A DNA stretch of 64,000 bases from Escherichia phage vB_EcoM_G17: sequence record MK327931.1, one strand, 5' to 3'. The notes beneath the pieces are model-generated. The model was not told the origin of the DNA and did no database searches. It saw only the letters and a program-made list of their open reading frames with translations. The position numbers and the translations under genes are program-made. Of the stretch, positions 235-46,394 are shown piece after piece. Each line of letters opens with the position of its first letter. The first letter of the stretch is position 1.

Positions 235-846
235 TCAATCATGTTTATTCAATTTCTTCTGTTCTTTTTTCAAAGCTTTCATATGACGACCAAACTCTCG
301 AACATGCCATAGATGATCGGTTTCCCATAATTCTTGACGTAACCTACGTTCTTCTAGTAGTTTCGACTTGTCAATGTTATTTTTCTTTTTTTGTACATTA
401 AAGAAATTATTCATATGTTCTTGGAGAAGATTACGACCTTTAACTTTCTCAAGAAACTCATCAACTGTTTCAGTTTTATTCGAACGTAGTTGATTACATC
501 TGGAGCACATAGTATTAAAGTTTGACTCTAAATCAGGTCCACCCTTAGATGCCAGATGATTATGGTCAACTGTCATTAAAACTTCATAAAGACCACATAC
601 AGCATATACATTTAAATGTGGTTTACCATATACTGGATCAGAACATAATGAACGTTCAATGCGTACTTCAGTAGCTTCAATCCCACATGCCACGCATTTT
701 GGATTCTTAACAAAAGTAAGAACTTTTTGTGGGAAATATCGAAAAGTAATACCATTTAAAGTGTAGCGTTTCATCTTAGTACTTCGTTGATTTAATTCGT
801 CAAGAAGTGATAATTTTGTCGTATAGTAAACATGATATTTGTTCAT
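235..846 (-). CDS. HNH-family endonuclease (free-standing, homing-endonuclease-like)
   Basis: Motif VDHNHLASKGGPDLESNFNTMCSRCNQ (D-H-N...N...C..C) plus upstream CxxC pair; start moved to Met16 of track ORF (AAGGAA SD, 1 nt after upstream stop); track start 891 overlaps the upstream gene. Confidence 0.6.
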   Translation of the reverse strand: MNKYHVYYTTKLSLLDELNQRSTKMKRYTLNGITFRYFPQKVLTFVKNPKCVACGIEATEVRIERSLCSDPVYGKPHLNVYAVCGLYEVLMTVDHNHLASKGGPDLESNFNTMCSRCNQLRSNKTETVDEFLEKVKGRNLLQEHMNNFFNVQKKKNNIDKSKLLEERRLRQELWETDHLWHVREFGRHMKALKKEQKKLNKHD

Positions 847-847
847 T

Positions 848-1156
848 TTATTCCTTGATATTGATTTTAATATCTTTACCTTGTAAATCACGAATAGTTT
901 TAATCAATGCGTCGTGTTTTAAAGCACATTCATTGTAGACTGCATCCCAACGAGTAAGTACTTTAAGAATTTCTGCACCATCATAACCTTTAAAACCATT
1001 TTTGTCAATCATAATTTTTTGTGGTAGAGGTGTATCATCATCACATCTTTCTAACAGAATTTCTTGTTTAATTGGTGCGGGGGATTGTAGTTTTACTTGC
1101 TCGGCACACCCACTTATAATTAAAAAAGAAATCATTGGAACTAATAATTTTTTCAT
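848..1156 (-). CDS. outer-membrane lipoprotein, putative o-spanin (Rz1-like)
   Basis: Signal peptide with lipobox IISGC; ATGA overlap with the upstream TM/coiled-coil gene; arrangement like T4 pseT.3/pseT.2 separated spanins. Confidence 0.5.
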   Translation of the reverse strand: MKKLLVPMISFLIISGCAEQVKLQSPAPIKQEILLERCDDDTPLPQKIMIDKNGFKGYDGAEILKVLTRWDAVYNECALKHDALIKTIRDLQGKDIKINIKE

Positions 1157-2013: not shown

Positions 2014-2043
2014 AAAAAAAGAGAACTCCATATGAAGTTCTCT
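2014..2043 (-). terminator. rho-independent terminator-like hairpin
   Basis: 8-bp stem AGAGAACT/AGTTCTCT with 8-nt loop, followed on minus strand by T7. Confidence 0.5.
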
Positions 2044-2074
2044 GATTATACATAATTACTTTTTCTATGTCAAG

Positions 2075-5570: not shown

Positions 5571-6803
5571 TTACTTATACCATTGCATTTCTCTGATATC
5601 AATGATAATTTTTGATGCTAATTTAATGTTTGGTTTTTTGGGAAGTACTGATTTCTTATATAGAACATCACGAATGTATTGTACTTTATCATCGAAATAT
5701 TCTAATACTTCTTCATACTTCCACTTACCATTACGAATATCCATCAACATTTGTGCATCAGGTCGTTTAACTTGAATAATTCCACTCTGTAAAGCTTCTT
5801 CTGCACTATTCAAAAGTCTAATTGTGTGCATAGCATGTTTACAATCGTATCCGTGTTGTGATTCTAAAACAGCACGTTTGGCATTACGATTTTCTTTCCA
5901 TTTATGATAACTTTTCCTATTCTCACTATTCTCCTGATATTCTTTTTCGTTAAATTTTACAATTAGTTCTGGTTTGGTTTTCAACTCTTCAGTACTACGT
6001 TCTTTTGAAAAATAACGCAATGAACCATCATGGTTAATAGTGCTTTCATTAGGATTCTTAACAATCGCAAAAATGTTTTCTCCGTAATGAATTAGTTCAT
6101 AACCATTATTAAAATTCAATAAATTGAAATCACGATCAAGAATTTTTTCAGTAGTGTAGTTATGCACTAATCTTACGAAATGATATTGCTTTAATGGATT
6201 TTTCGAAACTAACTGCAATGATGTATCACGCATATATTTTTCAAAATCAATCTTTTTAGCATTAAATGGATGTAAGTTGGATGTATCTAAACGTTCAACA
6301 AGATACTGTGGGAATGAATCATACATCCACGCAAGAACCTCATCGACAGGGTGTTCTTCTAAAATCTCATTTAATCGTTTTTCAGCAATACGCTCTTTAT
6401 CCATCCAACCGTGATGATTTGTCATACGCTTAATCTGATTATATGCATATCCAGTGTATGAAAATGCAATCTTGGAACTAAGAAGTTTTTGGTTAAATGA
6501 ACGAAGATAGTCATAAATTTCAGTACTTTCCACAATGTGTTCAGGTTCAACCCAAAGTGATTCAAGAATATTAGGGTTAGCTTCAGTGTATAATTTTAAA
6601 TACTGATTCAACTCATAGAATTTAGTATCTTCTTCGCTTTTGTCAGCTACCTCTTTGACCTTATAGAAGGGTGTAAGAATAAATTCTTTATTAGCAAGAA
6701 AAATACCACGATAATCAGTATCACTTTCCGGTGTACTGGTTCCGTAGGCTTGTGACCCAGCCAAGTGTTTCACTATTGTTTGTTCAATATATTGGTTATT
6801 CAT
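5571..6803 (-). CDS. DNA polymerase beta-superfamily nucleotidyltransferase (predicted)
   Basis: N-terminal GSQAYGTSTPESDTDYRG matches the hG[GS]...DxD nucleotidyltransferase signature. Confidence 0.55.
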   Translation of the reverse strand: MNNQYIEQTIVKHLAGSQAYGTSTPESDTDYRGIFLANKEFILTPFYKVKEVADKSEEDTKFYELNQYLKLYTEANPNILESLWVEPEHIVESTEIYDYLRSFNQKLLSSKIAFSYTGYAYNQIKRMTNHHGWMDKERIAEKRLNEILEEHPVDEVLAWMYDSFPQYLVERLDTSNLHPFNAKKIDFEKYMRDTSLQLVSKNPLKQYHFVRLVHNYTTEKILDRDFNLLNFNNGYELIHYGENIFAIVKNPNESTINHDGSLRYFSKERSTEELKTKPELIVKFNEKEYQENSENRKSYHKWKENRNAKRAVLESQHGYDCKHAMHTIRLLNSAEEALQSGIIQVKRPDAQMLMDIRNGKWKYEEVLEYFDDKVQYIRDVLYKKSVLPKKPNIKLASKIIIDIREMQWYK

Positions 6804-7201
6804 AGATAAATTGTTAACTCCTTTAAGAAACCATTATAATAACGATTAAAGTCATGTTCTAATGTTTTATAATCATCAAAACTAAAACCTAAATTGATAA
6901 TTGTATCTTCTTGAAAGAAAGTTTCTTCATTCATACATTCAATAGGTTCGTAATTAATTCCACCTTTGAAAACTTTTGTAAAAAACATTCCATCATTATT
7001 AATTTCAACATACATAAAATTATTTTCTGGGTCACGAGGACAGACGATATTCAGTGAACTATTTCCACTTGTATTGTACTCATAAGAAATTATATCAAAA
7101 GAATCAATACCATAACACTTAGATTTTTCTTTATCGCCAAATACTTTTCTATCTGTACTCATATTGCGTATAGTGCTATAGATATCATCAACTGTAGTCA
7201 T
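6800..7201 (-). CDS. hypothetical protein
   Basis: ORF co-oriented with and overlapping flanking genes by 4 nt. Confidence 0.5.
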   Translation of the reverse strand: MTTVDDIYSTIRNMSTDRKVFGDKEKSKCYGIDSFDIISYEYNTSGNSSLNIVCPRDPENNFMYVEINNDGMFFTKVFKGGINYEPIECMNEETFFQEDTIINLGFSFDDYKTLEHDFNRYYNGFLKELTIYL

Positions 7202-7203
7202 AG

Positions 7204-7713
7204 TTAACCACCATACTTTGACTTGTATGTTTCAAGTGATAAAGATATACGATTTTGCTTTTTAATTCTTTCATCAATATCCTTTGAATTCTTCACACTT
7301 CGGTATACGTCAGCTAATAAATTATAATCTTCTTTATTTGAGCTATGCTGTGTCCAACCTATGTCTGTTTTAATACGAACATTTGCTTTATTTGACGAGT
7401 AAAAGAAACTGAAACCATTTGACCCATCAAAAATATCAAAAGTATCTACCCAATCACCATAAGGAAAACTCATCGGGACTGACTCGTGGTCGATTGTGAT
7501 ATCCGATAAATTTTTTGAACAGTACTTCGCAAAGTGATAAACAATTGGATCACATTTAGATAATTCATATTTGTATTCAATGATAGTTTTTCTATTAGCA
7601 TCATTGATAGCATATTCTTTCATCAATGGGCTTTTTTTGATGATAAGAGTCCACAGAAACGATTCTAATCCGGTTTCATCAACTTTTTGTTTCTTTTTGA
7701 AAAATGAAATCAT
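7204..7713 (-). CDS. hypothetical protein, member of a 3-gene tandem paralog set
   Basis: Shares motif KSPxxK..xxDxxRKxxIExKYxLSK with 7710..8231 and 8238..8804. Confidence 0.55.
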   Translation of the reverse strand: MISFFKKKQKVDETGLESFLWTLIIKKSPLMKEYAINDANRKTIIEYKYELSKCDPIVYHFAKYCSKNLSDITIDHESVPMSFPYGDWVDTFDIFDGSNGFSFFYSSNKANVRIKTDIGWTQHSSNKEDYNLLADVYRSVKNSKDIDERIKKQNRISLSLETYKSKYGG

Positions 7714-8231
7714 TTATATAAACCCTTAATTTTCTGTCTATTATGTATATCATTTTGCTGGATTTTCAATTTAGTAAGGTTGTTTCTTACACCTTCAACT
7801 CCACGCATTATTTGTAACATAATTAGTGATTCGTCATATGTTAGTACATTGCTATTATTATCGATATATACTTTCACTCCACTTTCAAGATAATCATTTT
7901 CTTTGGAGTTAAAGTTTCTAATAGCAAACTTAACGCCATTTGATGTATCACTGAAAACATATCGTTCCGCACCGTAGAATGTTTTTCCACGAAATAAACC
8001 GCCGTCTTCCCACTTCCAACGACTAGATTCATAATCATTAACGTAATCAATGATTAAAGAAAGTAAAGGGTGTTTGCTCAATTTATATTTTGCATCTAAC
8101 AGGATACGTCTATCATTATCTGTGGTGATAATATCCTTTAGTGAGTAGCTTTTAGATATAATTTTAAAGATAATTTCATGCCAAATTAAAGTACTGTTTT
8201 GTTTTCCAACTGATCCAAAAAACATATCCAT
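7710..8231 (-). CDS. hypothetical protein, tandem paralog
   Basis: Paralog motif KSYSLKDIITTDNDRRILLDAKYKLSK; 4-nt overlap with neighbour. Confidence 0.55.
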   Translation of the reverse strand: MDMFFGSVGKQNSTLIWHEIIFKIISKSYSLKDIITTDNDRRILLDAKYKLSKHPLLSLIIDYVNDYESSRWKWEDGGLFRGKTFYGAERYVFSDTSNGVKFAIRNFNSKENDYLESGVKVYIDNNSNVLTYDESLIMLQIMRGVEGVRNNLTKLKIQQNDIHNRQKIKGLYK

Positions 8232-8237
8232 TCCTCA

Positions 8238-8804
8238 TTAGTATAAATCAGTAATGTCTTTGTATGCATTAATCTGTTTTTGTTGTAATGAAAGTTCATT
8301 GAGTTTAGTTACCATTTTATCTACACCAACACGTGTATAGAAAATAATAAATGAATCTAAATTGCCTAGAGTAATTCTTGAACTGAAATTTGAAAGTTTT
8401 CTTGCATAAACATAAATTTCTTCTTCACTTGGTAAACGTTTCTCAATCGGCCAGCTTTCCACACCATTCGGCTCATAATCGATTTCAAATTCAACTCCCA
8501 TCACTGTGTCTTGAATGAGATCCGTATATGAACCACCGTAAAAATACTCTCTTGGTTTGGCTCTCCAACGAGGACTAAATGGGTCAGATGCGTATTCTTT
8601 TACAAATTTGTAAAAGGACATTTTACTGAGCATATACTTCATCTCAATTAGTGCTTTGCGGTCATCATCAGTTTTAAACTCTGCTTTGAGCGATGGACTT
8701 TTACACAGTAACTTAACTAAATTGATGTACATCTTTAATGTACGTTGTTCTTTCATTTCTTTGATTTTGTGACGTTTTGGTGGCGGTAATAAAGATTTGA
8801 CCAT
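8238..8804 (-). CDS. hypothetical protein, tandem paralog
   Basis: Paralog motif KSPSLKAEFKTDDDRKALIEMKYMLSK. Confidence 0.55.
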   Translation of the reverse strand: MVKSLLPPPKRHKIKEMKEQRTLKMYINLVKLLCKSPSLKAEFKTDDDRKALIEMKYMLSKMSFYKFVKEYASDPFSPRWRAKPREYFYGGSYTDLIQDTVMGVEFEIDYEPNGVESWPIEKRLPSEEEIYVYARKLSNFSSRITLGNLDSFIIFYTRVGVDKMVTKLNELSLQQKQINAYKDITDLY

Positions 8805-8836
8805 AATTTCCTCCTATTTTTATTCAATTATACACA

Positions 8837-8867
8837 TAAAAGAAAAGCCCGTCAATAGACGAGCTTT
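8837..8867 (-). terminator. terminator-like hairpin after tail-fibre genes (imperfect)
   Basis: Stem AAAGCCCGTC/GACGAGCTTT with one mismatch, followed on minus strand by a U-rich tract. Confidence 0.35.
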
Positions 8868-8871
8868 AAAT

Positions 8872-11601
8872 TTATTTCCAACGTGTACCTGGACCTGATG
8901 GTACACCAGTACTGGCAGGTATCGCTGAACCACGTTTCGTTGTACTTGGACGATATGTCAAAAAACGAGTTACTTTTTCTGTATCAATTGAAGTTATTCC
9001 TGAAGTTCCAGTAACTATCTTACCAATGTAAGTGCTAGTTAAAGATTCATCAATTGTTTCAGTACTAATAACATATGACGCTTTCTTAGTATTCCTGTTC
9101 ATTTGTATATACAAATAGAACGTAGTATTAGCTGGGTTACTTTTTACAGTACTTAAATCAACACTTTGTATAGGTAGTCTGTCGAAAATTCCACCTAAAA
9201 ACACCGGAACTTCACGTGTAAAGTACACTGAGAATCCTTGTGCAACGTCTTGTGATACTACCACAATCTTTTCTTTAACGCTACCATTTCCACTAATTAA
9301 ACCATCCATTTCAGCAGATGTTGTACCAAAAACGCTGAATACAGATTTGGTTTGATAGTCAGAATCTTGAAAATTGTAATATCCAAAACCAACACCAGGA
9401 ATAACACCATGTTGATATGCTGCACCAAGTTGGATGTAACTAGATGATAAAAAACGATTTGATGTTATGACACCATCTACTGTTTTAGCTATCATCATCT
9501 TAAATTGTGCATTACCTGGTTGTGAAAATTGATGAACAGCATCAACACCAATGTAACCAAATCCTGAATATTTTGCAACTGTTAGACCAGTACAACGTTT
9601 CATATATGCTTCAGTAATAATTCCTGTAACAGAACTAAGTGTCTCATATCTAGTACTTACCAATGTAGCTGAAGTTATGTTAGATCCAGATAATACAACA
9701 TCAACTTCGGCATAGATTGCATAACCTTGGTTATTGTTAAGATTATATGCTGAAACTACTGCAATGGATTTAGAAAAAGTATTATCAGGTACATAATATA
9801 ATACAATTTGTCCAGATAGTGTACCAACAATGCCAGAGTTTCCTAGATTAGCAAAAATATCTTGTTTTAATGATTCTAATACCGTTGGTTCTATTGTATA
9901 TGTTTCATCAAATTCTAAAGTATCTGGGTTTAATAATCCACCACTTGTTTTATATACACCTTCAATGAATGATGTTCCATAACATCTAACACTACCATCG
10001 GTATCAACAAGAGAAATCATAGCAGTGTATGTAAAATCATCACCTATTTGTTTACGATTAGATTGTGGTGCAAAACCATTTAATGTAGTATTATTTTGAA
10101 CTGAGTTATATTGATATGTTGGTTGTGAGCCTATTTCAGAAAAAACAGTATTATTATAATTATATGTTACATCATCATACGTACCAGAACATGCTAATAA
10201 TATTTTTCTATTATCGATGAAACGTACACCTAATAGGTTTGCACCAACAGCACTACCAAAAACTGGTAAAACGTTTGCATTTATAACGTTACTTGCGGAT
10301 CTAGTACTAGCAACCCATGAATCAAACGGTGTACCACTAACCTTATATCGTTGTAGACCATAAAATTCAGTTGAACTCCATCTAAATTTAGATGCAAATA
10401 CTAAACCATCTTTGGTTTGACATAAACCACCTGCGTTTCCTAATACACCAGCAGCAGTTGTCCCAGTAAAGTTGACCATATTGATTTCAAATGGGTTAGA
10501 AACTTGAAATCCATTATCATATGAAACTGTAGCAGGAGCACGAGCAGAACCATCTAGTGACATAGATTTTGAGTTTATATTATAAACAAAACTGATACCA
10601 GTACCATACACTGTTGAAATATATAAAGGTGTAACCATTCTATGGGTTGGGTATAAAGTTACACGTATTTTGGATAAATCAGTACTAACGTTTGCTTGTA
10701 TATTAAAGTCTGTATAATCCGAAAATTCTACACGTGAGACTGGTGATGTAACTTCGAATAATGAATCCGAGCTAGTACCAACACTATATAATCTATCAAA
10801 CACTCTTATGTTATTAGATGCAGAATAACTTGTATTTCGAACAGTTTGCCCTGATAATCCAGTAACTTTTGTTAATGATGCCATTGAGCTTGCTTTCACA
10901 TCACTTAGCTCTACTGTATAAATTGAAAGTGCTAATCCTAAATTAGAAACACTTTTATCTTTACACCAAATATATACTTTTGTTCCAACAATATGAGTAT
11001 ATATAGGCATATCATTACCAAAAGAAGTACTTGGTACTTTAGCATGAATATGTGATACTTCGTTGAATGTACCATTAGTTATAGTAAAAATATAATTATC
11101 TTCTGTACTTAAACATCCAAGCATTTCATAACCATTAGAGCCAATAAAATACTTAATATTCTCTGTACTACTCATAATTGAAGGTTTATACATTGAATTG
11201 GTTGAAATAACACTTTCTTGTGAAATCATGGTTATATTTCTGATTTCTCGTATAAATGAATAATAAAAACCTTTAGTACTACCATTGGTTCCGCTACGCA
11301 GAACAACGGCGGTTCCATCATCTTCAATAATTGTTGGCTGAACTACTTGGTCACTTGACATAGGTGTAGCACCTTCATACGACCCACTTACGTTTAATGG
11401 CAAGTAATCCATTTCTCCTACACGTGATATAGGCAACATATCTAAAATACTTTGAACTTCTGAACGCTTATATATTGGATATTGAACAATTCCAGTATTG
11501 GCATTCGGTGAGGTTCCATTAAAAGTACGCATAGCGTACCTTTGTCCAATTGCCAAGTTCCCAAGGATCTCGGCACTTCCTATAATTCGTTTTGATGACA
11601 T
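8872..11601 (-). CDS. tail fibre / receptor-binding protein, paralog 1
   Basis: About 910 aa, Ser/Thr/Gly/Asn-rich; N-terminus (PISxxGxxxYLPxxVSG) and C-terminal ~70 aa (VxRFxTYRPSxTxxGSxxPxSTGxPSxxGT) shared with 12217..14913; start set at Met31 of track ORF (AAGGA SD, 16 nt after upstream stop). Confidence 0.7.
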   Translation of the reverse strand: MSSKRIIGSAEILGNLAIGQRYAMRTFNGTSPNANTGIVQYPIYKRSEVQSILDMLPISRVGEMDYLPLNVSGSYEGATPMSSDQVVQPTIIEDDGTAVVLRSGTNGSTKGFYYSFIREIRNITMISQESVISTNSMYKPSIMSSTENIKYFIGSNGYEMLGCLSTEDNYIFTITNGTFNEVSHIHAKVPSTSFGNDMPIYTHIVGTKVYIWCKDKSVSNLGLALSIYTVELSDVKASSMASLTKVTGLSGQTVRNTSYSASNNIRVFDRLYSVGTSSDSLFEVTSPVSRVEFSDYTDFNIQANVSTDLSKIRVTLYPTHRMVTPLYISTVYGTGISFVYNINSKSMSLDGSARAPATVSYDNGFQVSNPFEINMVNFTGTTAAGVLGNAGGLCQTKDGLVFASKFRWSSTEFYGLQRYKVSGTPFDSWVASTRSASNVINANVLPVFGSAVGANLLGVRFIDNRKILLACSGTYDDVTYNYNNTVFSEIGSQPTYQYNSVQNNTTLNGFAPQSNRKQIGDDFTYTAMISLVDTDGSVRCYGTSFIEGVYKTSGGLLNPDTLEFDETYTIEPTVLESLKQDIFANLGNSGIVGTLSGQIVLYYVPDNTFSKSIAVVSAYNLNNNQGYAIYAEVDVVLSGSNITSATLVSTRYETLSSVTGIITEAYMKRCTGLTVAKYSGFGYIGVDAVHQFSQPGNAQFKMMIAKTVDGVITSNRFLSSSYIQLGAAYQHGVIPGVGFGYYNFQDSDYQTKSVFSVFGTTSAEMDGLISGNGSVKEKIVVVSQDVAQGFSVYFTREVPVFLGGIFDRLPIQSVDLSTVKSNPANTTFYLYIQMNRNTKKASYVISTETIDESLTSTYIGKIVTGTSGITSIDTEKVTRFLTYRPSTTKRGSAIPASTGVPSGPGTRWK

Positions 11602-11617
11602 CTTTCTTTTCCTTAAT

Positions 11618-12205
11618 TTACCAACCAATTGTACCAGTTTCTGATGGTTTTCCAGTACTGACTGGGAATGAAGAACCTTTTTGTGTAACACTAGGTCTAT
11701 ATGTACTAAATCTGGATACTTTATTAATGTTTATATTTGTAATACCACTTGTACCAACGGTCAGTGTTCCAATAAACATTATAATTTCAGATTCTTGTAT
11801 TTGTGTTGGTGATATTTTATAAATTGGTTCACCGAGAACTAACGTTGCATATACATATTGTGTTTGTGTTCCAGATGAAACAGTTGAAGCAAAAATAGAA
11901 ACTGCTGGAAATTTATAAAGATAACCACCAATAAATGATGGTATCTGTCTATTAAATGTAAGACTATAGCCTGATGAAGTAATATTTAGACTAGCGTCAT
12001 CATACAATTCTCCGTATTGTGTAAGTGGTAATCCATTGACAATAAAGTTAACTTCATCTTTGGTAATAGAGGGGAATGTACATTCCCCATTTGAATTTGT
12101 TGGGTAATAAGTCATATTATTACCTAATACACCAAGTCCAGTACTTTTACCCTGTACTGTAACTTGTTGCATTGCCTTAAGGTCTGCTCTTATTTTAAAT
12201 GCCAT
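11618..12205 (-). CDS. short tail-fibre-related protein sharing the conserved C-terminal domain
   Basis: 195 aa; C-terminus KVSRFSTYRPSVTQKGSSFPVSTGKPSETGTIGW aligns with the C-termini of both long fibre proteins. Confidence 0.6.
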   Translation of the reverse strand: MAFKIRADLKAMQQVTVQGKSTGLGVLGNNMTYYPTNSNGECTFPSITKDEVNFIVNGLPLTQYGELYDDASLNITSSGYSLTFNRQIPSFIGGYLYKFPAVSIFASTVSSGTQTQYVYATLVLGEPIYKISPTQIQESEIIMFIGTLTVGTSGITNININKVSRFSTYRPSVTQKGSSFPVSTGKPSETGTIGW

Positions 12206-12216
12206 TATGTAATCCT

Positions 12217-14913
12217 TTACCAGTTTATGGTTCCTGTTTGTGATGGTAGACCGTAGCTAACTGGGAACGATGAACCTGCTGATTCAAGTGAAGCACCAAA
12301 TATATCTAAACGTGAACGTTTTTGTATATTAATAGTTTCGATTTGAATTGCGTTAGTTTGAATAGTACCTATCCAAAAAATATTATATGCAGTTGTTCCT
12401 GTTTCGGAAATAACATCAGTAGTTATGTAGTAGTTTGCCAACCCTTGTTCTAATTTAACATATACATAAAATGTTGTATTTGCTGGATTAGATTTTATAG
12501 TTCTCAAATCAATATTTGAAACTGGTAGTGTAAAAGACTTACCTGATAGTATAACTGGTGTTTCCTCTGTAAAATAAACAATAAACCCTTGAGCAACGTC
12601 TTGTGATACTACGTTAATTGGGCTACCTTGTGGAGTCCAGTTATTATAGTCGGCTATCGTTGTTCCATATTTTTGAAATGACATTTTATTTGTATAATCC
12701 AGTGGATCAAAAATACCAAATCCAATACCAGGCAACGCAGTGGGTTGTCTTCCTTGTTCATAACTGGCATGAGAACCAGTAATAACAAAACTTGTAAATT
12801 GTGCAGTTGATTTAGTTACATATGCTCTAAATTGATGAGTTGCTGTATTTCCTATTGTTGGATGTGTTAATGGGTCAGAACCACCAATGAAGTAGAATGA
12901 ACCACCATCATAAATTGTTAACCCAACAGAAGAAGATGCAATCGAACCATTACCATTAGGTGTAAAGTTTTCACCATATGTATTTTCTAGTACTAAACGC
13001 TTAAAGGTAATAGATGTTATATTTCCAACTCTAGTATTAACGTTAACTTCAGCAATTCTAATATAGTTTTTATAGTCATTTGTTATAGTACTCAACATAA
13101 CAAAAGCCGGAATGTCAGTTTGTTGTGGAACAAATAATGTCATATCACGATAAGCTTGTGAAGATAAGTTCCAGTCACTTAGAACTTTAGCATATTCTGT
13201 ATTTCTAAAGTTATCTAGAACTGATTGTGTAACACTAATAACACCAGTACCATTTAAGTTTTTATCATATGAAAATGATTGTGAATAACGTTGACCAACC
13301 ATAAAAATACCGCCATTAGTTGTTACAGTTGAACCTGAAATACTACTAATGAAAATTCTATTATTGGCATTATCATCTACATAACCACGTTCAGTTGTAG
13401 GTTCATAACCTTGTATGGTTCCTAAAGATAATGATTTAAATGTAAAATTAGGAGTACTTTTATGAACTGCATATGATGGTCTAAACCCACCACTACCAGA
13501 CGCACGTGAATATTGTTTAGTACTATTATCTGGTAACAACTCCACACCATTAATAAATGAACCAACTGCTGAACCAAAGGATGGTCTAACAACTCCACCT
13601 TTAAAATCAGTTGATTGTACTGCACGAACGTTAATCATACTATAAACAATTTGTATAGGAAACTTTGCTTTTTGCATAAGTAATGGTTCTGCTAAGTTTG
13701 GACACACAGTACAAAAAGCTTCACCTGAACTTAAGTAAAAATAAGAACTATAAATGTTTCTTGCATTAGCATGATTATATAATGGATCATTATTTAAAAC
13801 GTTACCTGTAGGCACTAATGCAGAACCAGTATTGGTTATAACCAATGGTGCTTGATATGAACCTATGTCATTCCCAGCGTCTAGGGTGCATTGTTTAGTA
13901 CTCATATTAAATGCAAAGCTGTAGCTATGTTGTGGTCGGGCATTATATGTCGCCATTGTAAACCATGCATCACCATTCATTCTAAAACGAAAGTTCTGTG
14001 TTCCTGGTTGCTGTGCAACATACAAATCAATGGATGTCATATAAATCCCAATACCACGTAGGTTTTGTGGTACATACACATAAGGCTTATCTGCTATATT
14101 AGTTGAAGTTACTTGATTAGTAATAACCATGTTATTCTGTGCAGAATAAGTTGTATTATAGAATGTTTTTGTAGTCCATCCTGTAATACGAGTTGCCGTA
14201 TATGTTCCATTGCTAATATTATATACAACTCGGACAACAACTAACTGTAGTTGGTTATTTTCATTAAGAACACTAAAGACATAGATTGAACCATCTTCAG
14301 CCATCATTGCAAATTCTATACCACCTTCAGGGCAAATATCTGCTTGATTTACAAAAAAACCAGTATGTAATTTATCATCTAATGTACCATTAGTAATAGA
14401 AATAAACAATCCATTAGTACTGTTAGAAGTGTCTACATATCTACCGAGTAAAATATTTGGATCAGTATTGTATAAGCCAATTGCGACGCGATTTGAACCG
14501 AAAAAACCAGGCTTGTATTGACGACTGGTGTTAATTGTACGGCTCATGTCATCAACTGATAATGCGTTAGCCAAATATGAATAATATAATCCCTCAACAC
14601 TACCGTTTGTACCACTACGTAATAATACGAGTGTACCATCGTTTTCTAATAAAATTTTATTTCTACGTTGGGACTGGTTTTCAGATGCACCATTGAAATC
14701 ACCAGATACACCAGCAGGAAGATAGTTTTGTGACCCATAATGGGAAATTGGCATCATACTGACGATATCTAGTACTTCATCTCTTGAATAAGTATCTAGC
14801 TCCATATTGCCATTAGCATCAAATACTTGATCATTGATACCTTGTATTGTTCTTTTACCATTAACTGTCACATTATGTGTGACATCCAAGCCACCATATA
14901 TTTTCTTTGACAT
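12217..14913 (-). CDS. tail fibre / receptor-binding protein, paralog 2
   Basis: 898 aa; same composition and shared termini as paralog 1; AAGGGA SD upstream; TATAAATA motif 35 nt upstream. Confidence 0.7.
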   Translation of the reverse strand: MSKKIYGGLDVTHNVTVNGKRTIQGINDQVFDANGNMELDTYSRDEVLDIVSMMPISHYGSQNYLPAGVSGDFNGASENQSQRRNKILLENDGTLVLLRSGTNGSVEGLYYSYLANALSVDDMSRTINTSRQYKPGFFGSNRVAIGLYNTDPNILLGRYVDTSNSTNGLFISITNGTLDDKLHTGFFVNQADICPEGGIEFAMMAEDGSIYVFSVLNENNQLQLVVVRVVYNISNGTYTATRITGWTTKTFYNTTYSAQNNMVITNQVTSTNIADKPYVYVPQNLRGIGIYMTSIDLYVAQQPGTQNFRFRMNGDAWFTMATYNARPQHSYSFAFNMSTKQCTLDAGNDIGSYQAPLVITNTGSALVPTGNVLNNDPLYNHANARNIYSSYFYLSSGEAFCTVCPNLAEPLLMQKAKFPIQIVYSMINVRAVQSTDFKGGVVRPSFGSAVGSFINGVELLPDNSTKQYSRASGSGGFRPSYAVHKSTPNFTFKSLSLGTIQGYEPTTERGYVDDNANNRIFISSISGSTVTTNGGIFMVGQRYSQSFSYDKNLNGTGVISVTQSVLDNFRNTEYAKVLSDWNLSSQAYRDMTLFVPQQTDIPAFVMLSTITNDYKNYIRIAEVNVNTRVGNITSITFKRLVLENTYGENFTPNGNGSIASSSVGLTIYDGGSFYFIGGSDPLTHPTIGNTATHQFRAYVTKSTAQFTSFVITGSHASYEQGRQPTALPGIGFGIFDPLDYTNKMSFQKYGTTIADYNNWTPQGSPINVVSQDVAQGFIVYFTEETPVILSGKSFTLPVSNIDLRTIKSNPANTTFYVYVKLEQGLANYYITTDVISETGTTAYNIFWIGTIQTNAIQIETINIQKRSRLDIFGASLESAGSSFPVSYGLPSQTGTINW

Positions 14914-43222: not shown

Positions 43223-44155
43223 TTAGAAATTTCCTTCAGCCACTTGGAAAACTTTCAACCCAAGTAGCTTACGCCACATGAATACAACTTGATCGCGGTC
43301 ATCATATACCTTTTTAACATCGTAATGATCAACCACATTTTTCATGTACAGGTCGAATTTTACAACATCATCAGGACGTTTATCATCGATATCTCGCATA
43401 AACAATGCATCGTAAGGAACACCCCAATTCTTAAGCCACTGTTCGGTATCAGCACGACACCCTTCAGTACGCCCACTCATGACGATAATCTTGCGTTTAT
43501 GAAAAACTGCTTCAGCGATAATAGACAAAATAACTTCTTCATCAGGTGTATCCTGAAGAACAGTACTTTCATCGTAAGGATTACGACCCCATTTATGAGC
43601 AAGAGTTCCATCGATATCAACGATGATAGCAGCTTCGCGTGAATTACCATAGTAACCAATGTGTAATGCCTTACTATAATAGTACGTATCTGCCATTGTG
43701 TCAATGATATCATCTTGTACTGAACGCTCACGCTGGAGGTTATATTTCTTACAAAGTTTTACGAACTCTTTAATCTTAAAGAATTCATGAACATCTGCAC
43801 CACGGTCTTCATTAGGTACAAAATCATCATAGAAGTTCTTTTCTTTGTAATCATAACCATTATCTTTAGCCCATACTTTCCAGAGATTACGGAAATGTTG
43901 TTTAAGGTTTGTATCGGATATGATGATGTTCCAACCATTCTCTGCTGCTGAATTTGCTGCACTGAACTGTAAATTAGTTACGTACTGCTCATTAGCATCG
44001 TTGAATTTGTAAGCATCATGTGACCCAGCCATAGATTCACGAATATCATCACGGTTGATGTTGATAGTCTTGGATTTGGCATTTTTAATTTCTTGAACTG
44101 CCCATGTGGTTTTACCACACCCAGGTAATCCAACTGTTAGTGTAATAGTTGGCAT
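43223..44155 (-). CDS. pseT: polynucleotide 5'-kinase / 3'-phosphatase (T4 Pnk-like)
   Basis: N-terminal P-loop LTVGLPGCGKTTWA and C-terminal HAD-type phosphatase motif IVDIDGTLA. Confidence 0.85.
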   Translation of the reverse strand: MPTITLTVGLPGCGKTTWAVQEIKNAKSKTININRDDIRESMAGSHDAYKFNDANEQYVTNLQFSAANSAAENGWNIIISDTNLKQHFRNLWKVWAKDNGYDYKEKNFYDDFVPNEDRGADVHEFFKIKEFVKLCKKYNLQRERSVQDDIIDTMADTYYYSKALHIGYYGNSREAAIIVDIDGTLAHKWGRNPYDESTVLQDTPDEEVILSIIAEAVFHKRKIIVMSGRTEGCRADTEQWLKNWGVPYDALFMRDIDDKRPDDVVKFDLYMKNVVDHYDVKKVYDDRDQVVFMWRKLLGLKVFQVAEGNF

Positions 44156-45251: not shown

Positions 45252-46394
45252 CTAAAAATCCTTTAGTACAATTTTCATGTATTTTATAAGAGTCTCTTTG
45301 TAATCAACTTTCTTATTGTTATACATTGCAAAGGCCAAGCCCTGACGATTCAGTTCATTAGTTAAACACTCCTGAACCTTCATTGCGAATTCCTTTCGCT
45401 CCAAGTGCTTGTGTTCCTTGACGAAGCTTTCTACTTCATCTTGTAATGCATTATAGCACGAAAATACCAATTGTTCCATTCTTAATATCTTTTGCATAGC
45501 ATATTCATCAGTACTGAACAATTGTTTTAAATCATCACTTGAACCATTTAATACTGCTTCATATAAATGAGAATCAATAATAATACTATCTTTTGTAAGA
45601 TGTAATGAACTGTACCAGTCAGTCTTTATTTTACACATTGTCCCATTATTTAGGATGCACACAAAACCCTCAATATCAAGCATTTTATGAACTTCCTCCA
45701 CGCTTTCACGGAAGGTATTTCGTACCGGAAAAGTGTGATGAATATCTTTTCCAGTCATATTAGTACTGTACTGTGCAAGACATGGAAACTTATCACGTAG
45801 TGCTTTACCACATAGCAACTCACCACTCACACGATGACGAACGTTCAGTACAAACAGTTGTTCTACCTGATATGGTAATACAATTCGGTACTCTGGGCTT
45901 GTATACTCCATATTAACTGTGTAACCTAAACGTTCCGCTTCGTCGATGTACTGATACAAATTCTGGTTCTCGTTAATAAGTCGAGTACTGTTAATCGCAT
46001 GGTCAGAATACAATGCAGTATGTGATTTACAACGAATCTCACCATCATTATCACGGTAAGTACTGATAATCGAACCATCCAACTTAGGCATCACTACCGC
46101 AATGTCATCGCATGTGGTGTTAGCAGGGAACATTGTAGCAGGATTCTCGTAAGCATTGAAGAACTTTTTCATTGTACGTGCTGCACAACGTATCATTTCA
46201 CCTTCTTCATCAATTTCCCACATAGAGCCACGGGTTTCCAACGCATTTGGTTGCATGAAATCAGTGTATGATGCTAGACGATAACTGAATACACGATACG
46301 TGCCACCAGCAGGACTTTTATGATCCACATAAAAGAATGCATCGTTTGTATTACATAAGTGCATTAAATCTTCATATATTTGCAAAAGGGTCAT
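45252..46394 (-). CDS. rnlA: RNA ligase 1 (T4 Rnl1-like)
   Basis: Closely parallels T4 Rnl1 as recalled: FFYVDHKSPAGGTYRVFSYRLASYTDF, ALETRGSMWEI, KKFFNAYENP, lysine motif PKLDGSI. Confidence 0.85.
   Translation of the reverse strand: MTLLQIYEDLMHLCNTNDAFFYVDHKSPAGGTYRVFSYRLASYTDFMQPNALETRGSMWEIDEEGEMIRCAARTMKKFFNAYENPATMFPANTTCDDIAVVMPKLDGSIISTYRDNDGEIRCKSHTALYSDHAINSTRLINENQNLYQYIDEAERLGYTVNMEYTSPEYRIVLPYQVEQLFVLNVRHRVSGELLCGKALRDKFPCLAQYSTNMTGKDIHHTFPVRNTFRESVEEVHKMLDIEGFVCILNNGTMCKIKTDWYSSLHLTKDSIIIDSHLYEAVLNGSSDDLKQLFSTDEYAMQKILRMEQLVFSCYNALQDEVESFVKEHKHLERKEFAMKVQECLTNELNRQGLAFAMYNNKKVDYKETLIKYMKIVLKDF

What the first reader, a model, noticed from the sequence alone, without database searches (positions are those of the whole stretch)
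5571..6803. Polymerase-beta-superfamily nucleotidyltransferase between structural modules
A 410-aa protein carries the GS...DxD nucleotidyltransferase signature in its first 40 residues. Enzymes of this fold include RNA-repair-associated nucleotidyltransferases, CCA-adding-like enzymes, nucleotide-signal synthases and protein nucleotidylyltransferases. Its position next to fibre genes, far from the Pnk/Rnl1 pair, leaves its substrate open.
Basis: partly seen in the sequence, partly recalled or inferred. Interest (0 to 1): 0.45.

Follow-up and report, generated by a model that had tools for sequence, protein, structure and literature searches.

The report
Phage RNA-repair-type nucleotidyltransferase gene
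This is a real, intact gene for a nucleotide-adding enzyme in a giant E. coli phage, already labelled as such in the public record; it belongs to a family tied to RNA repair and most likely patches damaged tRNA ends, but nobody has tested the phage version.

Summary
The 410-aa ORF at 5571-6803 (minus strand) is real. It is identical to gp452 of Escherichia phage Sharanji (Asteriusvirus), deposited as "putative nucleotidyltransferase". Pfam places it in PF10127/RlaP (59.6 bits, cut-off 23), and PHROG 388 matches the full length (E 1e-76). A confident AF2 model (pLDDT 90.6) matches only Pol-beta-fold NTases. G16-S17, D28-x-D30 and D59 are invariant in 30 homologues. It is a long-form RlaP of the T4 NrdC.11 type: NTase core, a beta subdomain, a HEPN-like helical domain, and a 61-aa insert specific to jumbo phages. 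Canonical short RlaPs add 1-2 NMPs to RNA 3'-OH ends (2025 preprint). Long-form relatives sit in RtcR/Ro60/RtcB/RtcA RNA-repair operons in at least four deep bacterial lineages, and directly after Cca genes in several phage lineages. Sharanji itself encodes Pnkp, Rnl1 and Cca. A larger RecA/UvsX-UvsW context comes from one clade only. The best reading is an RNA (tRNA) 3'-end nucleotidyltransferase acting between Pnkp healing and Rnl1 sealing. This is inferred, not shown. It is a known family and a known annotation, so interest is low to moderate.

The parts
5571..6803 (-). Complete gene for the 410-aa NrdC.11-type (long-form) RlaP-family Pol-beta nucleotidyltransferase. It equals Sharanji_gp452 / WNN14733.1.
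   Evidence: ORF; 100% identity to OR545507.1 277201-278433; Pfam PF10127 59.6 bits; PHROG 388 E 1.3e-76.
6390..6803 (-). N-terminal NTase core plus following helices (aa 1-138). It holds G16-S17 (6753-6758), D28-x-D30 (6714-6722), D59 (6627-6629) and the NPN motif at aa 76-78.
   Evidence: Pfam match aa 13-131; invariant columns; strands and helices in the AF2 model; NTase-fold hits.
6207..6389 (-). Helical insert of about 61 aa (aa 139-199) specific to the jumbo-phage lineage and absent from the 340-360-aa forms.
   Evidence: Alignment gap in all short-type homologues; helical in the model.
5949..6206 (-). Central beta-rich subdomain (aa 200-285). It is shared by all long-form relatives and is not covered by the Pfam RlaP profile.
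   Evidence: Alignment; strands E210-215, E233-241, E244-254, E280-284; a canonical short RlaP aligns only to the NTase core.
5574..5948 (-). C-terminal helical domain (aa 286-410), a HEPN-like four-helix bundle. Invariant residues are W302 K303 R306 N307 R310 E314 D320 K322 H326 R329 E336 R347 D349 R357 G359. It is the presumed substrate and NTP-binding side of the cleft.
8827..8867 (-). Terminator-like hairpin overlapping a near-consensus sigma-70-type promoter (TTGACG-17-TATAAT), followed by AGGAGG and the gp456 start. This is the likely start of the gp456-to-gp449 transcription unit that contains the NTase gene.
   Evidence: These are consensus matches only and were not tested.
2020..2073 (-). 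Perfect sigma-70-type promoter (TTGACA-17-TATAAT) followed by a terminator-like hairpin, just after gp449. This is the likely end of the unit containing the NTase gene and the start of the ACP unit.
   Evidence: 12 of 12 promoter match in an intergenic gap.
43223..44155 (-). T4-type polynucleotide kinase-phosphatase (Pnkp), deposited as 'zeta toxin' (gp516). It is the proposed upstream partner for end healing.
   Evidence: Pfam HAD_PNKP 8.6e-44 plus AAA_33; coordinates. The partnership is inferred.
45252..46394 (-). T4-type RNA ligase 1 (gp521). It is the proposed downstream partner for sealing 3'-OH/5'-P ends.
   Evidence: Pfam RNA_lig_T4_1 plus T4_Rnl1_C; coordinates. The partnership is inferred.

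Best explanation
gp452 is a catalytically intact Pol-beta-fold nucleotidyltransferase of the RlaP family (PF10127). It belongs to the long-form subfamily typified by T4 NrdC.11. The most likely function is template-independent addition of one or a few nucleotides to the 3'-OH ends of damaged RNA, chiefly tRNA, during infection. The proposed order has three steps. First, the phage Pnkp converts the 2',3'-cyclic-phosphate and 5'-OH ends left by a host anticodon nuclease or similar ribotoxin into 3'-OH and 5'-P ends. Second, gp452 refills nucleotides that the toxin excised. Third, Rnl1 seals the break. The phage Cca enzyme may handle acceptor-end damage in parallel. What is shown: the fold, the family, the intact active site, the presence of the partner genes in the genome, and the RNA-repair contexts of relatives. 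What is inferred: the substrate, the number of nucleotides added, and the link to a particular host toxin.
For: Family and active site. Pfam RlaP scores 59.6 bits against a cut-off of 23. PHROG 388 matches the full length. All but one truncated sequence of the 120 listed homologues carry PF10127. G16, S17, D28, D30 and D59 are invariant. The AF2 model has pLDDT 90.6 and its best structural hits are NTases. hhalign to T4 NrdC.11 gives probability 97.9% over 274 columns.

Biochemistry of the family. Pseudomonas RlaPs add 1-2 NMP to RNA 3'-OH. They do not act on DNA or protein, prefer Mn2+, and improve aminoacylation of repaired tRNA that lacked a nucleotide. The authors note that the 3'-OH product suits 5'-phosphate ligases, and Rnl1 is one (preprint 10.64898/2025.12.29.696909).

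Context of long-form relatives. L096 has RtcR | Ro60-RtcB-RtcA next to a 360-aa relative that is 51% and 39% identical over the two halves. L103 has Ro60 ... short RlaP - long RlaP - RtcB. RtcB is the top real neighbour, in 5 of 42 cellular groups, and falls in at least 4 deep lineages of the tree. A Cca (PolyA_pol+HD) gene lies 0-1.6 kb upstream in 6 of 52 viral groups, in 3 of 4 sampled contigs, 2 kb upstream in KB57, and in L069, the nearest outgroup of the jumbo clade.

The genome itself. Sharanji carries Pnkp, Rnl1 and Cca. T4 likewise has NrdC.11, which is dispensable in the laboratory, as expected of a conditional counter-defence gene.
Against: No enzyme of the long-form subfamily has been assayed. 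The Pfam match covers only the NTase half (profile 24-144 of 249). A canonical short RlaP aligns to the long-form profile only over 69 core columns (probability 35%). The activity is therefore transferred across a real divergence, from a preprint. In Sharanji the gene is not adjacent to any RNA-repair gene. It is 36-39 kb from Pnkp and Rnl1 and 16 kb from Cca, and it sits in a unit with tail-type genes. The commonest viral context, 36 of 52 groups, is gp32 - RecA/UvsX - RlaP - UvsW, a DNA recombination block, although that is one clade. The solved PfRlaP structure was not in the PDB copy, so equivalence of the C-terminal domains could not be checked.
Confidence: 0.55

Rival explanations
1. It is a DNA-end nucleotidyltransferase that works in phage recombination or repair, for example by adding nucleotides to 3' DNA ends handled by the recombinase, SSB and helicase.
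For: In 36 of 52 de-replicated viral groups the homologue lies directly after a RecA/UvsX-like gene (median gap 79 nt), 1.2 kb after gp32 and 1 kb before UvsW. The Sharanji paper lists the protein among DNA-repair proteins, by annotation only.
Against: All RecA-linked proteins form a single clade in which the whole block is syntenic, so this counts as one event. A bacterial RtcB-operon copy (L096) nests inside that clade. Canonical RlaPs do not use DNA acceptors. Sharanji's own gene is not near its recombination genes.
Confidence: 0.12
2. It is a synthase of a nucleotide or oligonucleotide signal, or a decoy for one, used to manipulate a host defence system. An example would be a HalB-like oligodeoxyadenylate maker that interferes with Hailong-type defence.
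Against: Similarity is at fold level only (13% identity, TM about 0.2-0.3). There is no PADLOC hit, although that 2023 library may lack Hailong. No context of any relative points to signalling partners, while RNA-repair contexts recur.
Confidence: 0.08
3. It is a protein or small-molecule nucleotidylyltransferase, that is, an AMPylase like the MNT antitoxins or an ANT/KNTase-like modifier, acting on a host or phage protein or a metabolite.
Confidence: 0.07
4. It has a virion- or tail-fibre-related role, either packaged or needed for fibre assembly, as its position among tail-type genes might suggest.
For: The downstream neighbours are PHROG tail and tail-fibre proteins. The gene overlaps its upstream neighbour by ATGA and appears to share a promoter-terminator unit with them.
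Against: The neighbourhood is not conserved. In GAP32 the gene is flanked by small non-structural genes, and in other phages by Cca or RecA. Bacterial relatives exist with no phage context. No virion proteome data were found.
Confidence: 0.03

Closest known systems
T4 NrdC.11 / PHROG 388 'nucleotidyltransferase' (long-form RlaP; SSN cluster 5 of PF10127 in the 2025 preprint)
   Same: Homologous over the full length: hhalign probability 97.9% over 274 columns, including the C-terminal GxD.K..H..R and DA..L motifs. PHROG 388 gives E 1.3e-76 over aa 4-409. Both are phage accessory genes in genomes that also encode Pnkp and Rnl1, and the T4 gene is deletable.
   Different: Sequence identity to T4 is low (about 29% over aa 6-150 by tblastn). 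Sharanji carries an extra helical insert of about 61 aa. Neither protein has been characterised.
Canonical bacterial RlaP (PF10127; PfRlaP/PaRlaP of Pseudomonas, encoded between rtcB and rtcA)
   Same: Same Pfam family above the gathering score, same NTase core and catalytic carboxylates, and the same overall plan of an NTase domain plus a C-terminal helical domain. Long-form relatives also sit in RtcB/Ro60 operons, sometimes in tandem with a canonical short RlaP.
   Different: Only the N-terminal half matches the Pfam profile (24-144 of 249). The long form has an added beta subdomain and a divergent helical domain. A short RlaP aligns to the long-form profile over only 69 columns. The activity of adding 1-2 NMP to RNA 3'-OH is shown only for the short form, in a preprint.
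Class II CCA-adding enzyme / poly(A) polymerase (PF01743), including Sharanji gp419 Cca
   Same: It is another Pol-beta-superfamily enzyme that adds nucleotides to RNA 3' ends without a template. It is often encoded directly upstream of long-form RlaP genes in phages.
   Different: gp452 has no PF01743, RNA-binding or HD domain match. It is a separate gene, 16 kb from Sharanji's Cca.
KNTase/ANT and Hailong HalB (NTase plus helical-domain enzymes)
   Different: Identity is 10-18% and TM is 0.2-0.3. There is no family-level sequence match, and the substrates (aminoglycosides, free dATP) and genomic contexts differ.

Membership tests
Pol-beta superfamily nucleotidyltransferase fold | hG[GS] motif followed by [DE]x[DE] and a third carboxylate on a later strand | tested here: met
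   G16-S17, D28-T-D30 and D59 are invariant in 30 homologues. D59 sits at the start of strand E60-64 in the model.
Pol-beta superfamily nucleotidyltransferase fold | Structural match of the core alpha/beta domain to solved NTases | tested here: met
RlaP (Pfam PF10127) | Score above Pfam's gathering threshold | tested here: met
   59.6 bits against a cut-off of 23, E 4.9e-16.
RlaP (Pfam PF10127) | Match over the whole profile, including the C-terminal helical half | tested here: not met
   Only profile positions 24-144 of 249 align. A canonical short RlaP (222 bits, full profile) aligns to the long-form alignment over only 69 core columns, probability 35%.
RlaP (Pfam PF10127) | Gene-neighbourhood association with RNA ligases or RNA-repair genes, the basis of the family name | tested here: inconclusive
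   This is not met for this gene itself, which is 36-39 kb from Pnkp and Rnl1 and 16 kb from Cca. It is met for the subfamily: RtcB lies within 8 kb in 5 of 42 cellular groups across at least 4 lineages, Ro60 in 3, and Cca is adjacent in several phage lineages.
RlaP (Pfam PF10127) | Adds 1-2 NMP to RNA 3'-OH; no DNA or protein acceptor; prefers Mn2+ | not testable with these tools
   This is known only for PfRlaP and PaRlaP (preprint). It needs an enzyme assay.
RlaP (Pfam PF10127) | Crystal-structure plan: NTase domain, helical domain, and a final helix packing back on the NTase domain to form a charged cleft | tested here: inconclusive
   The model has an N-terminal NTase domain, a C-terminal helical domain and a terminal helix H393-409. 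The PfRlaP coordinates are not in the PDB copy, and model coordinates could not be inspected.
T4 NrdC.11-type long-form RlaP (PHROG 388) | Full-length match to the PHROG 388 profile and to T4 NrdC.11 | tested here: met
   PHROG 388 gives E 1.3e-76 over aa 4-409. hhalign to NrdC.11 gives probability 97.9% over 274 columns.
Class II CCA-adding enzyme / PolyA polymerase (PF01743) | PolyA_pol head domain with an RNA-binding domain (with or without HD) | tested here: not met
   There is no PF01743, PF12627 or HD hit at E <= 1. The phage's true Cca is gp419.
CD-NTase / known defence or anti-defence NTases | Match to PADLOC defence-system models | tested here: not met
   No PADLOC families at E <= 1. 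The library dates from 2023 and may lack newer systems such as Hailong.
HEPN ribonuclease domain / MNT-HEPN toxin-antitoxin | Conserved Rx4-6H catalytic motif in the helical domain | tested here: not met

The most novel reading that the evidence does not exclude
The long-form (NrdC.11-type) RlaP is an overlooked third enzyme of the classical phage tRNA-repair pathway. After Pnkp heals the ends, it would rebuild nucleotides excised by 'smart' host tRNases (RloC-type wobble-nucleotide excision, or acceptor-end trimming together with Cca), so that Rnl1 can restore a functional tRNA. That would make it a dedicated counter-counter-defence factor found across T4-like, Vequintavirinae and jumbo phages.
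Probability: 0.3. Interest if true: 0.6.

Novelty: already known. Interest (0 to 1): 0.28.

Why it matters
The gene itself is ordinary. It is an already annotated member of a named family that occurs in hundreds of phage genomes, T4 among them. Its value is as a handle on a modest open question: what do NrdC.11-type enzymes do? If they refill nucleotides removed by nucleotide-excising anticodon nucleases, the textbook two-enzyme T4 tRNA-repair pathway (Pnkp plus Rnl1) gains a third step. It would also explain how phages can defeat tRNases such as RloC, which were thought to frustrate repair by excising a nucleotide. The analysis here sharpens that hypothesis. The long form is a distinct subfamily. 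It recurs in RtcB/Ro60 operons and next to Cca genes. Its C-terminal GYD-x-KH motif is marked as critical by intein insertion.

Tried and rejected
1. A 781-aa ORF in L069 and a 702-aa ORF in L088 looked like Cca-RlaP fusions. They are intein-interrupted RlaP genes instead. The flanks rebuild the GYD|[CT]KHAMH motif, the insert starts with Cys and ends with HGN, and there is a weak LAGLIDADG_3 match.

2. The RecA/UvsX-UvsW context, in 36 of 52 viral groups, was taken seriously as evidence for a DNA role. It was down-weighted because all these proteins form one clade with whole-block synteny.

3. A HEPN RNase function for the C-terminal domain was rejected, because no conserved Rx4-6H motif exists.

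4. PDB sequence searches, both phmmer and a profile search, found nothing. The PfRlaP structure is not in the copy.

5. The afdb50 fold library was unavailable. The BFVD search returned only unnamed or generically named phage NTases.

6. NCBIfam and PADLOC gave no meaningful hits.

7. A Thg1 homologue of the kind found 3 kb upstream in GAP32 was sought in Sharanji record positions 246000-335700 and not found.

8. There are no tRNA genes in the window.

9. Phyletic co-occurrence of RlaP with Pnkp, Rnl or Cca across all phage records could not be computed, because the search tool lists at most 60 records.

10. The search of protein representatives and the second structure prediction were not used. 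They would not have changed the verdict.

Full report
**Observation.** The window matches Escherichia phage Sharanji (OR545507.1, Asteriusvirus, 350 kb) at 100% identity, with window position equal to record position minus 271630. The ORF at 5571..6803 on the minus strand encodes 410 aa and equals Sharanji_gp452 / WNN14733.1, deposited as "putative nucleotidyltransferase". gp516, deposited as "zeta toxin", is a T4-type Pnkp (AAA_33 + HAD_PNKP, E 8.6e-44) at 43223-44155(-). gp521 is an Rnl1 at 45252-46394(-).

**Anatomy.** The protein has four parts:
- An NTase core with trailing helices (aa 1-138).
- A helical insert of about 61 aa (aa 139-199), found only in the jumbo-phage lineage.
- A beta-rich subdomain (aa 200-285).
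- A C-terminal helical domain (aa 286-410).

T4 NrdC.11 is homologous across nearly the whole length (hhalign probability 97.9%, 274 columns). By contrast, a canonical short bacterial RlaP (245 aa, 222 bits over the full Pfam profile) aligns to the long-form profile only over 69 core columns (probability 35%). The Pfam match of gp452 likewise stops at profile position 144 of 249. gp452 is therefore a member of a distinct long-form, NrdC.11-type subfamily of RlaP. The HEPN-like domain has no conserved Rx4-6H motif, so it is not a HEPN RNase.

**What is known about the family.** A December 2025 preprint (10.64898/2025.12.29.696909) reports on two Pseudomonas RlaPs encoded between rtcB and rtcA. 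They add one or two NMPs (dNMPs also work) to RNA 3'-OH ends, do not act on DNA or protein, prefer Mn2+, and favour the broken anticodon-loop end of a cleaved-tRNA mimic. Their crystal structure shows an NTase domain and a helical domain forming a cleft. Treating a tRNA that lacks one nucleotide with RlaP before ligation raises its aminoacylation. The authors propose that RlaP counters ribotoxins that excise nucleotides, such as RloC. They note that its 3'-OH product suits 5'-phosphate ligases, and they place T4 NrdC.11, of unknown function, in a separate similarity cluster. T4's nrdC.11-mobD.3 segment is deletable in the laboratory (PMC9825161). The Sharanji genome paper merely lists WNN14733.1 among DNA-repair proteins (PMC11895373).

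**Context in this genome.** The gene's ATG overlaps the stop of gp453 (ATGA). A terminator-like hairpin and a TTGACG-17-TATAAT promoter lie upstream of gp456 (8867-8827, minus strand). A perfect TTGACA-17-TATAAT promoter plus a terminator follows gp449 (2073-2020, minus strand). Together these bracket a gp456-to-gp449 unit; they are consensus matches only. The downstream genes gp450 and gp449 fall in PHROG tail-fibre and tail families. gp454, gp455 and gp456 are paralogues of unknown function. The large gp457 and gp459 fall in a PHROG family of unknown function. This placement carries no functional message. In Cronobacter phage GAP32 (58% identity), homologues of gp457 and gp459 lie 4.5 kb upstream. 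The immediate neighbours there are small genes, a DNA methyltransferase and a Thg1-like tRNA-His guanylyltransferase. Only the order RlaP ... acyl carrier protein ... spanin is shared. Sharanji also encodes a Cca enzyme (gp419), 16 kb away and outside the window. The window holds no tRNA genes.

**Context of relatives, sampled without prior choice.** In 80 IMG/VR loci (52 groups at 80% identity), ORFs were clustered and ranked by recurrence. Three patterns emerged:
- 36 groups have gp32 - RecA/UvsX - RlaP - two small genes - UvsW.
- 6 groups have a Cca (PolyA_pol + HD) gene 0-1.6 kb upstream, and two of them also have a Pnkp within 8 kb.
- The four jumbo-phage groups have none of these within 10 kb.

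Three of four metagenomic contigs sampled earlier also have Cca directly upstream or one small gene away. One overlaps by 4 nt and one has a Pnkp 4 kb upstream. Klebsiella phage KB57 has a tRNA nucleotidyltransferase 2 kb upstream.

In 80 bacterial loci (42 groups), no neighbour dominates. The top real one is RtcB (5 groups), with Ro60/TROVE in three of them. Two loci are especially clear:
- L096 has RtcR | Ro60 - RtcB - RtcA, a metallo-beta-lactamase-fold gene, and then a 360-aa long-form RlaP that is 51% (aa 7-135) and 39% (aa 201-410) identical to gp452.
- L103 has Ro60 ... short RlaP - long RlaP (hhalign 99.95% to the alignment) - RtcB.

A rough NJ tree helps weigh these contexts. All RecA-linked proteins form one clade, with the L096 copy nested inside it. 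RtcB linkage occurs in at least four deep lineages. Cca linkage spans several deep branches. The nearest outgroup of the jumbo clade, L069, has a Cca gene immediately upstream whose head domain is 49.5% identical to Sharanji's Cca. Recurrent and independent association therefore favours RNA-end repair. The DNA-recombination context is a single inherited synteny.

**Mechanism proposed.** Shown: the gene encodes an intact Pol-beta NTase of the RlaP family, and the phage encodes Pnkp, Rnl1 and Cca. Inferred: during infection a host tRNase cuts tRNA and may remove a nucleotide. [quoted passage not shown] Acceptor-end damage would be handled together with Cca. I put this at about 0.55. The rivals are a DNA-end role (0.12), a HalB-like signal or oligonucleotide synthase (0.08), protein or small-molecule nucleotidylylation (0.07) and a virion or fibre role (0.03).

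**Comparison and novelty.** The closest known entities are T4 NrdC.11 / PHROG 388 (same subfamily, uncharacterised) and the canonical RlaPs (same Pfam family and core; different C-terminal half; activity known only from a preprint). Class II CCA-adding enzymes, CD-NTases and HEPN RNases were tested and are not matched. The gene, its fold and its family were already annotated, so the finding is "already known". This analysis adds four points: the distinction between long and short forms, the recurrent RtcB/Ro60 and Cca contexts for the long form, the single-clade nature of the RecA context, and the intein landmark. Interest is low to moderate (0.28). A specialist would not be surprised, but the hypothesis that NrdC.11-type enzymes are a third step in phage tRNA repair is now directly testable.

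Noticed in passing
L069 7271-8311 (ORF 6245-8590); L088 10739-11794 (ORF 9959-12067); also L089: RlaP homologues in three viral contigs are interrupted by an intein of about 350 aa. It starts with Cys, ends with HGN followed by C or T, and gives a weak LAGLIDADG_3 match of 20-21 bits. It is inserted exactly between D320 and residue 321 of the invariant GYD[CT]KHAMH motif, which marks that C-terminal motif as functionally critical.
   Followed up: partly
window 43223-44155 (-): Sharanji gp516 is deposited as 'zeta toxin', but it is a T4-type polynucleotide kinase-phosphatase (AAA_33 kinase plus HAD_PNKP phosphatase, E 8.6e-44). It lies 1.1 kb from the Rnl1 gene at 45252-46394.
   Followed up: yes
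L100, L101, L111, L139, L142, L146, L155, L166, L169 and others (35 of 80 bacterial loci, 21 of 42 groups): Many bacteria, especially Planctomycetota and Bacteroidota, carry tandem and often overlapping pairs of RlaP-like genes, one of about 250 aa and one of about 290-400 aa. This suggests a two-subunit or two-step arrangement of short and long forms.
   Followed up: no
L096 7968-9050, against the viral loci in the tree: The long-form RlaP beside the RtcR/Ro60/RtcB/RtcA operon of a Thioalkalispiraceae MAG nests inside the clade of RecA-linked phage proteins. This suggests horizontal transfer between phages and bacterial RNA-repair operons. The tree is a rough NJ tree without support values.
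   Followed up: partly
window 8827-8867 (-) and 2020-2073 (-): Two intergenic gaps combine a terminator-like hairpin with a consensus or near-consensus sigma-70 promoter (TTGACG-17-TATAAT and TTGACA-17-TATAAT). They bracket an eight-gene unit (gp456 to gp449) that mixes small unknown genes, the NTase gene and tail-type genes. Host-type promoters in front of tail-type genes would be unusual.
   Followed up: partly
window 7204-8804 (-): Three tandem paralogous small genes (gp454, gp455, gp456; 169-188 aa; PHROG 7868/18641, unknown function) lie just upstream of the NTase gene. A weak match to GAP32_150 covers only their N-terminal 35 aa or so.
   Followed up: no
window 8872-14913 (-): gp457 (939 aa), gp458 (195 aa) and gp459 (898 aa) share a C-terminal module of about 120 aa (PHROG 26864/3573). 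gp457 and gp459 are homologous to GAP32_145 (38% and 26% identity). They are fibre-like in layout, but PHROG lists the family as unknown function.
   Followed up: partly
L090 5186-5965 (GAP32_147): Cronobacter phage GAP32 encodes a Thg1-like tRNA-His guanylyltransferase (Pfam Thg1, E 5.5e-30) 3 kb upstream of its RlaP gene. This is another tRNA-end enzyme. No homologue was found in Sharanji record positions 246000-335700.
   Followed up: partly
window 235-891 (-): A 218-aa ORF near the window start has CxxC ... DHNH ... CxxC features that suggest an HNH-type endonuclease. It was not examined further.
   Followed up: no
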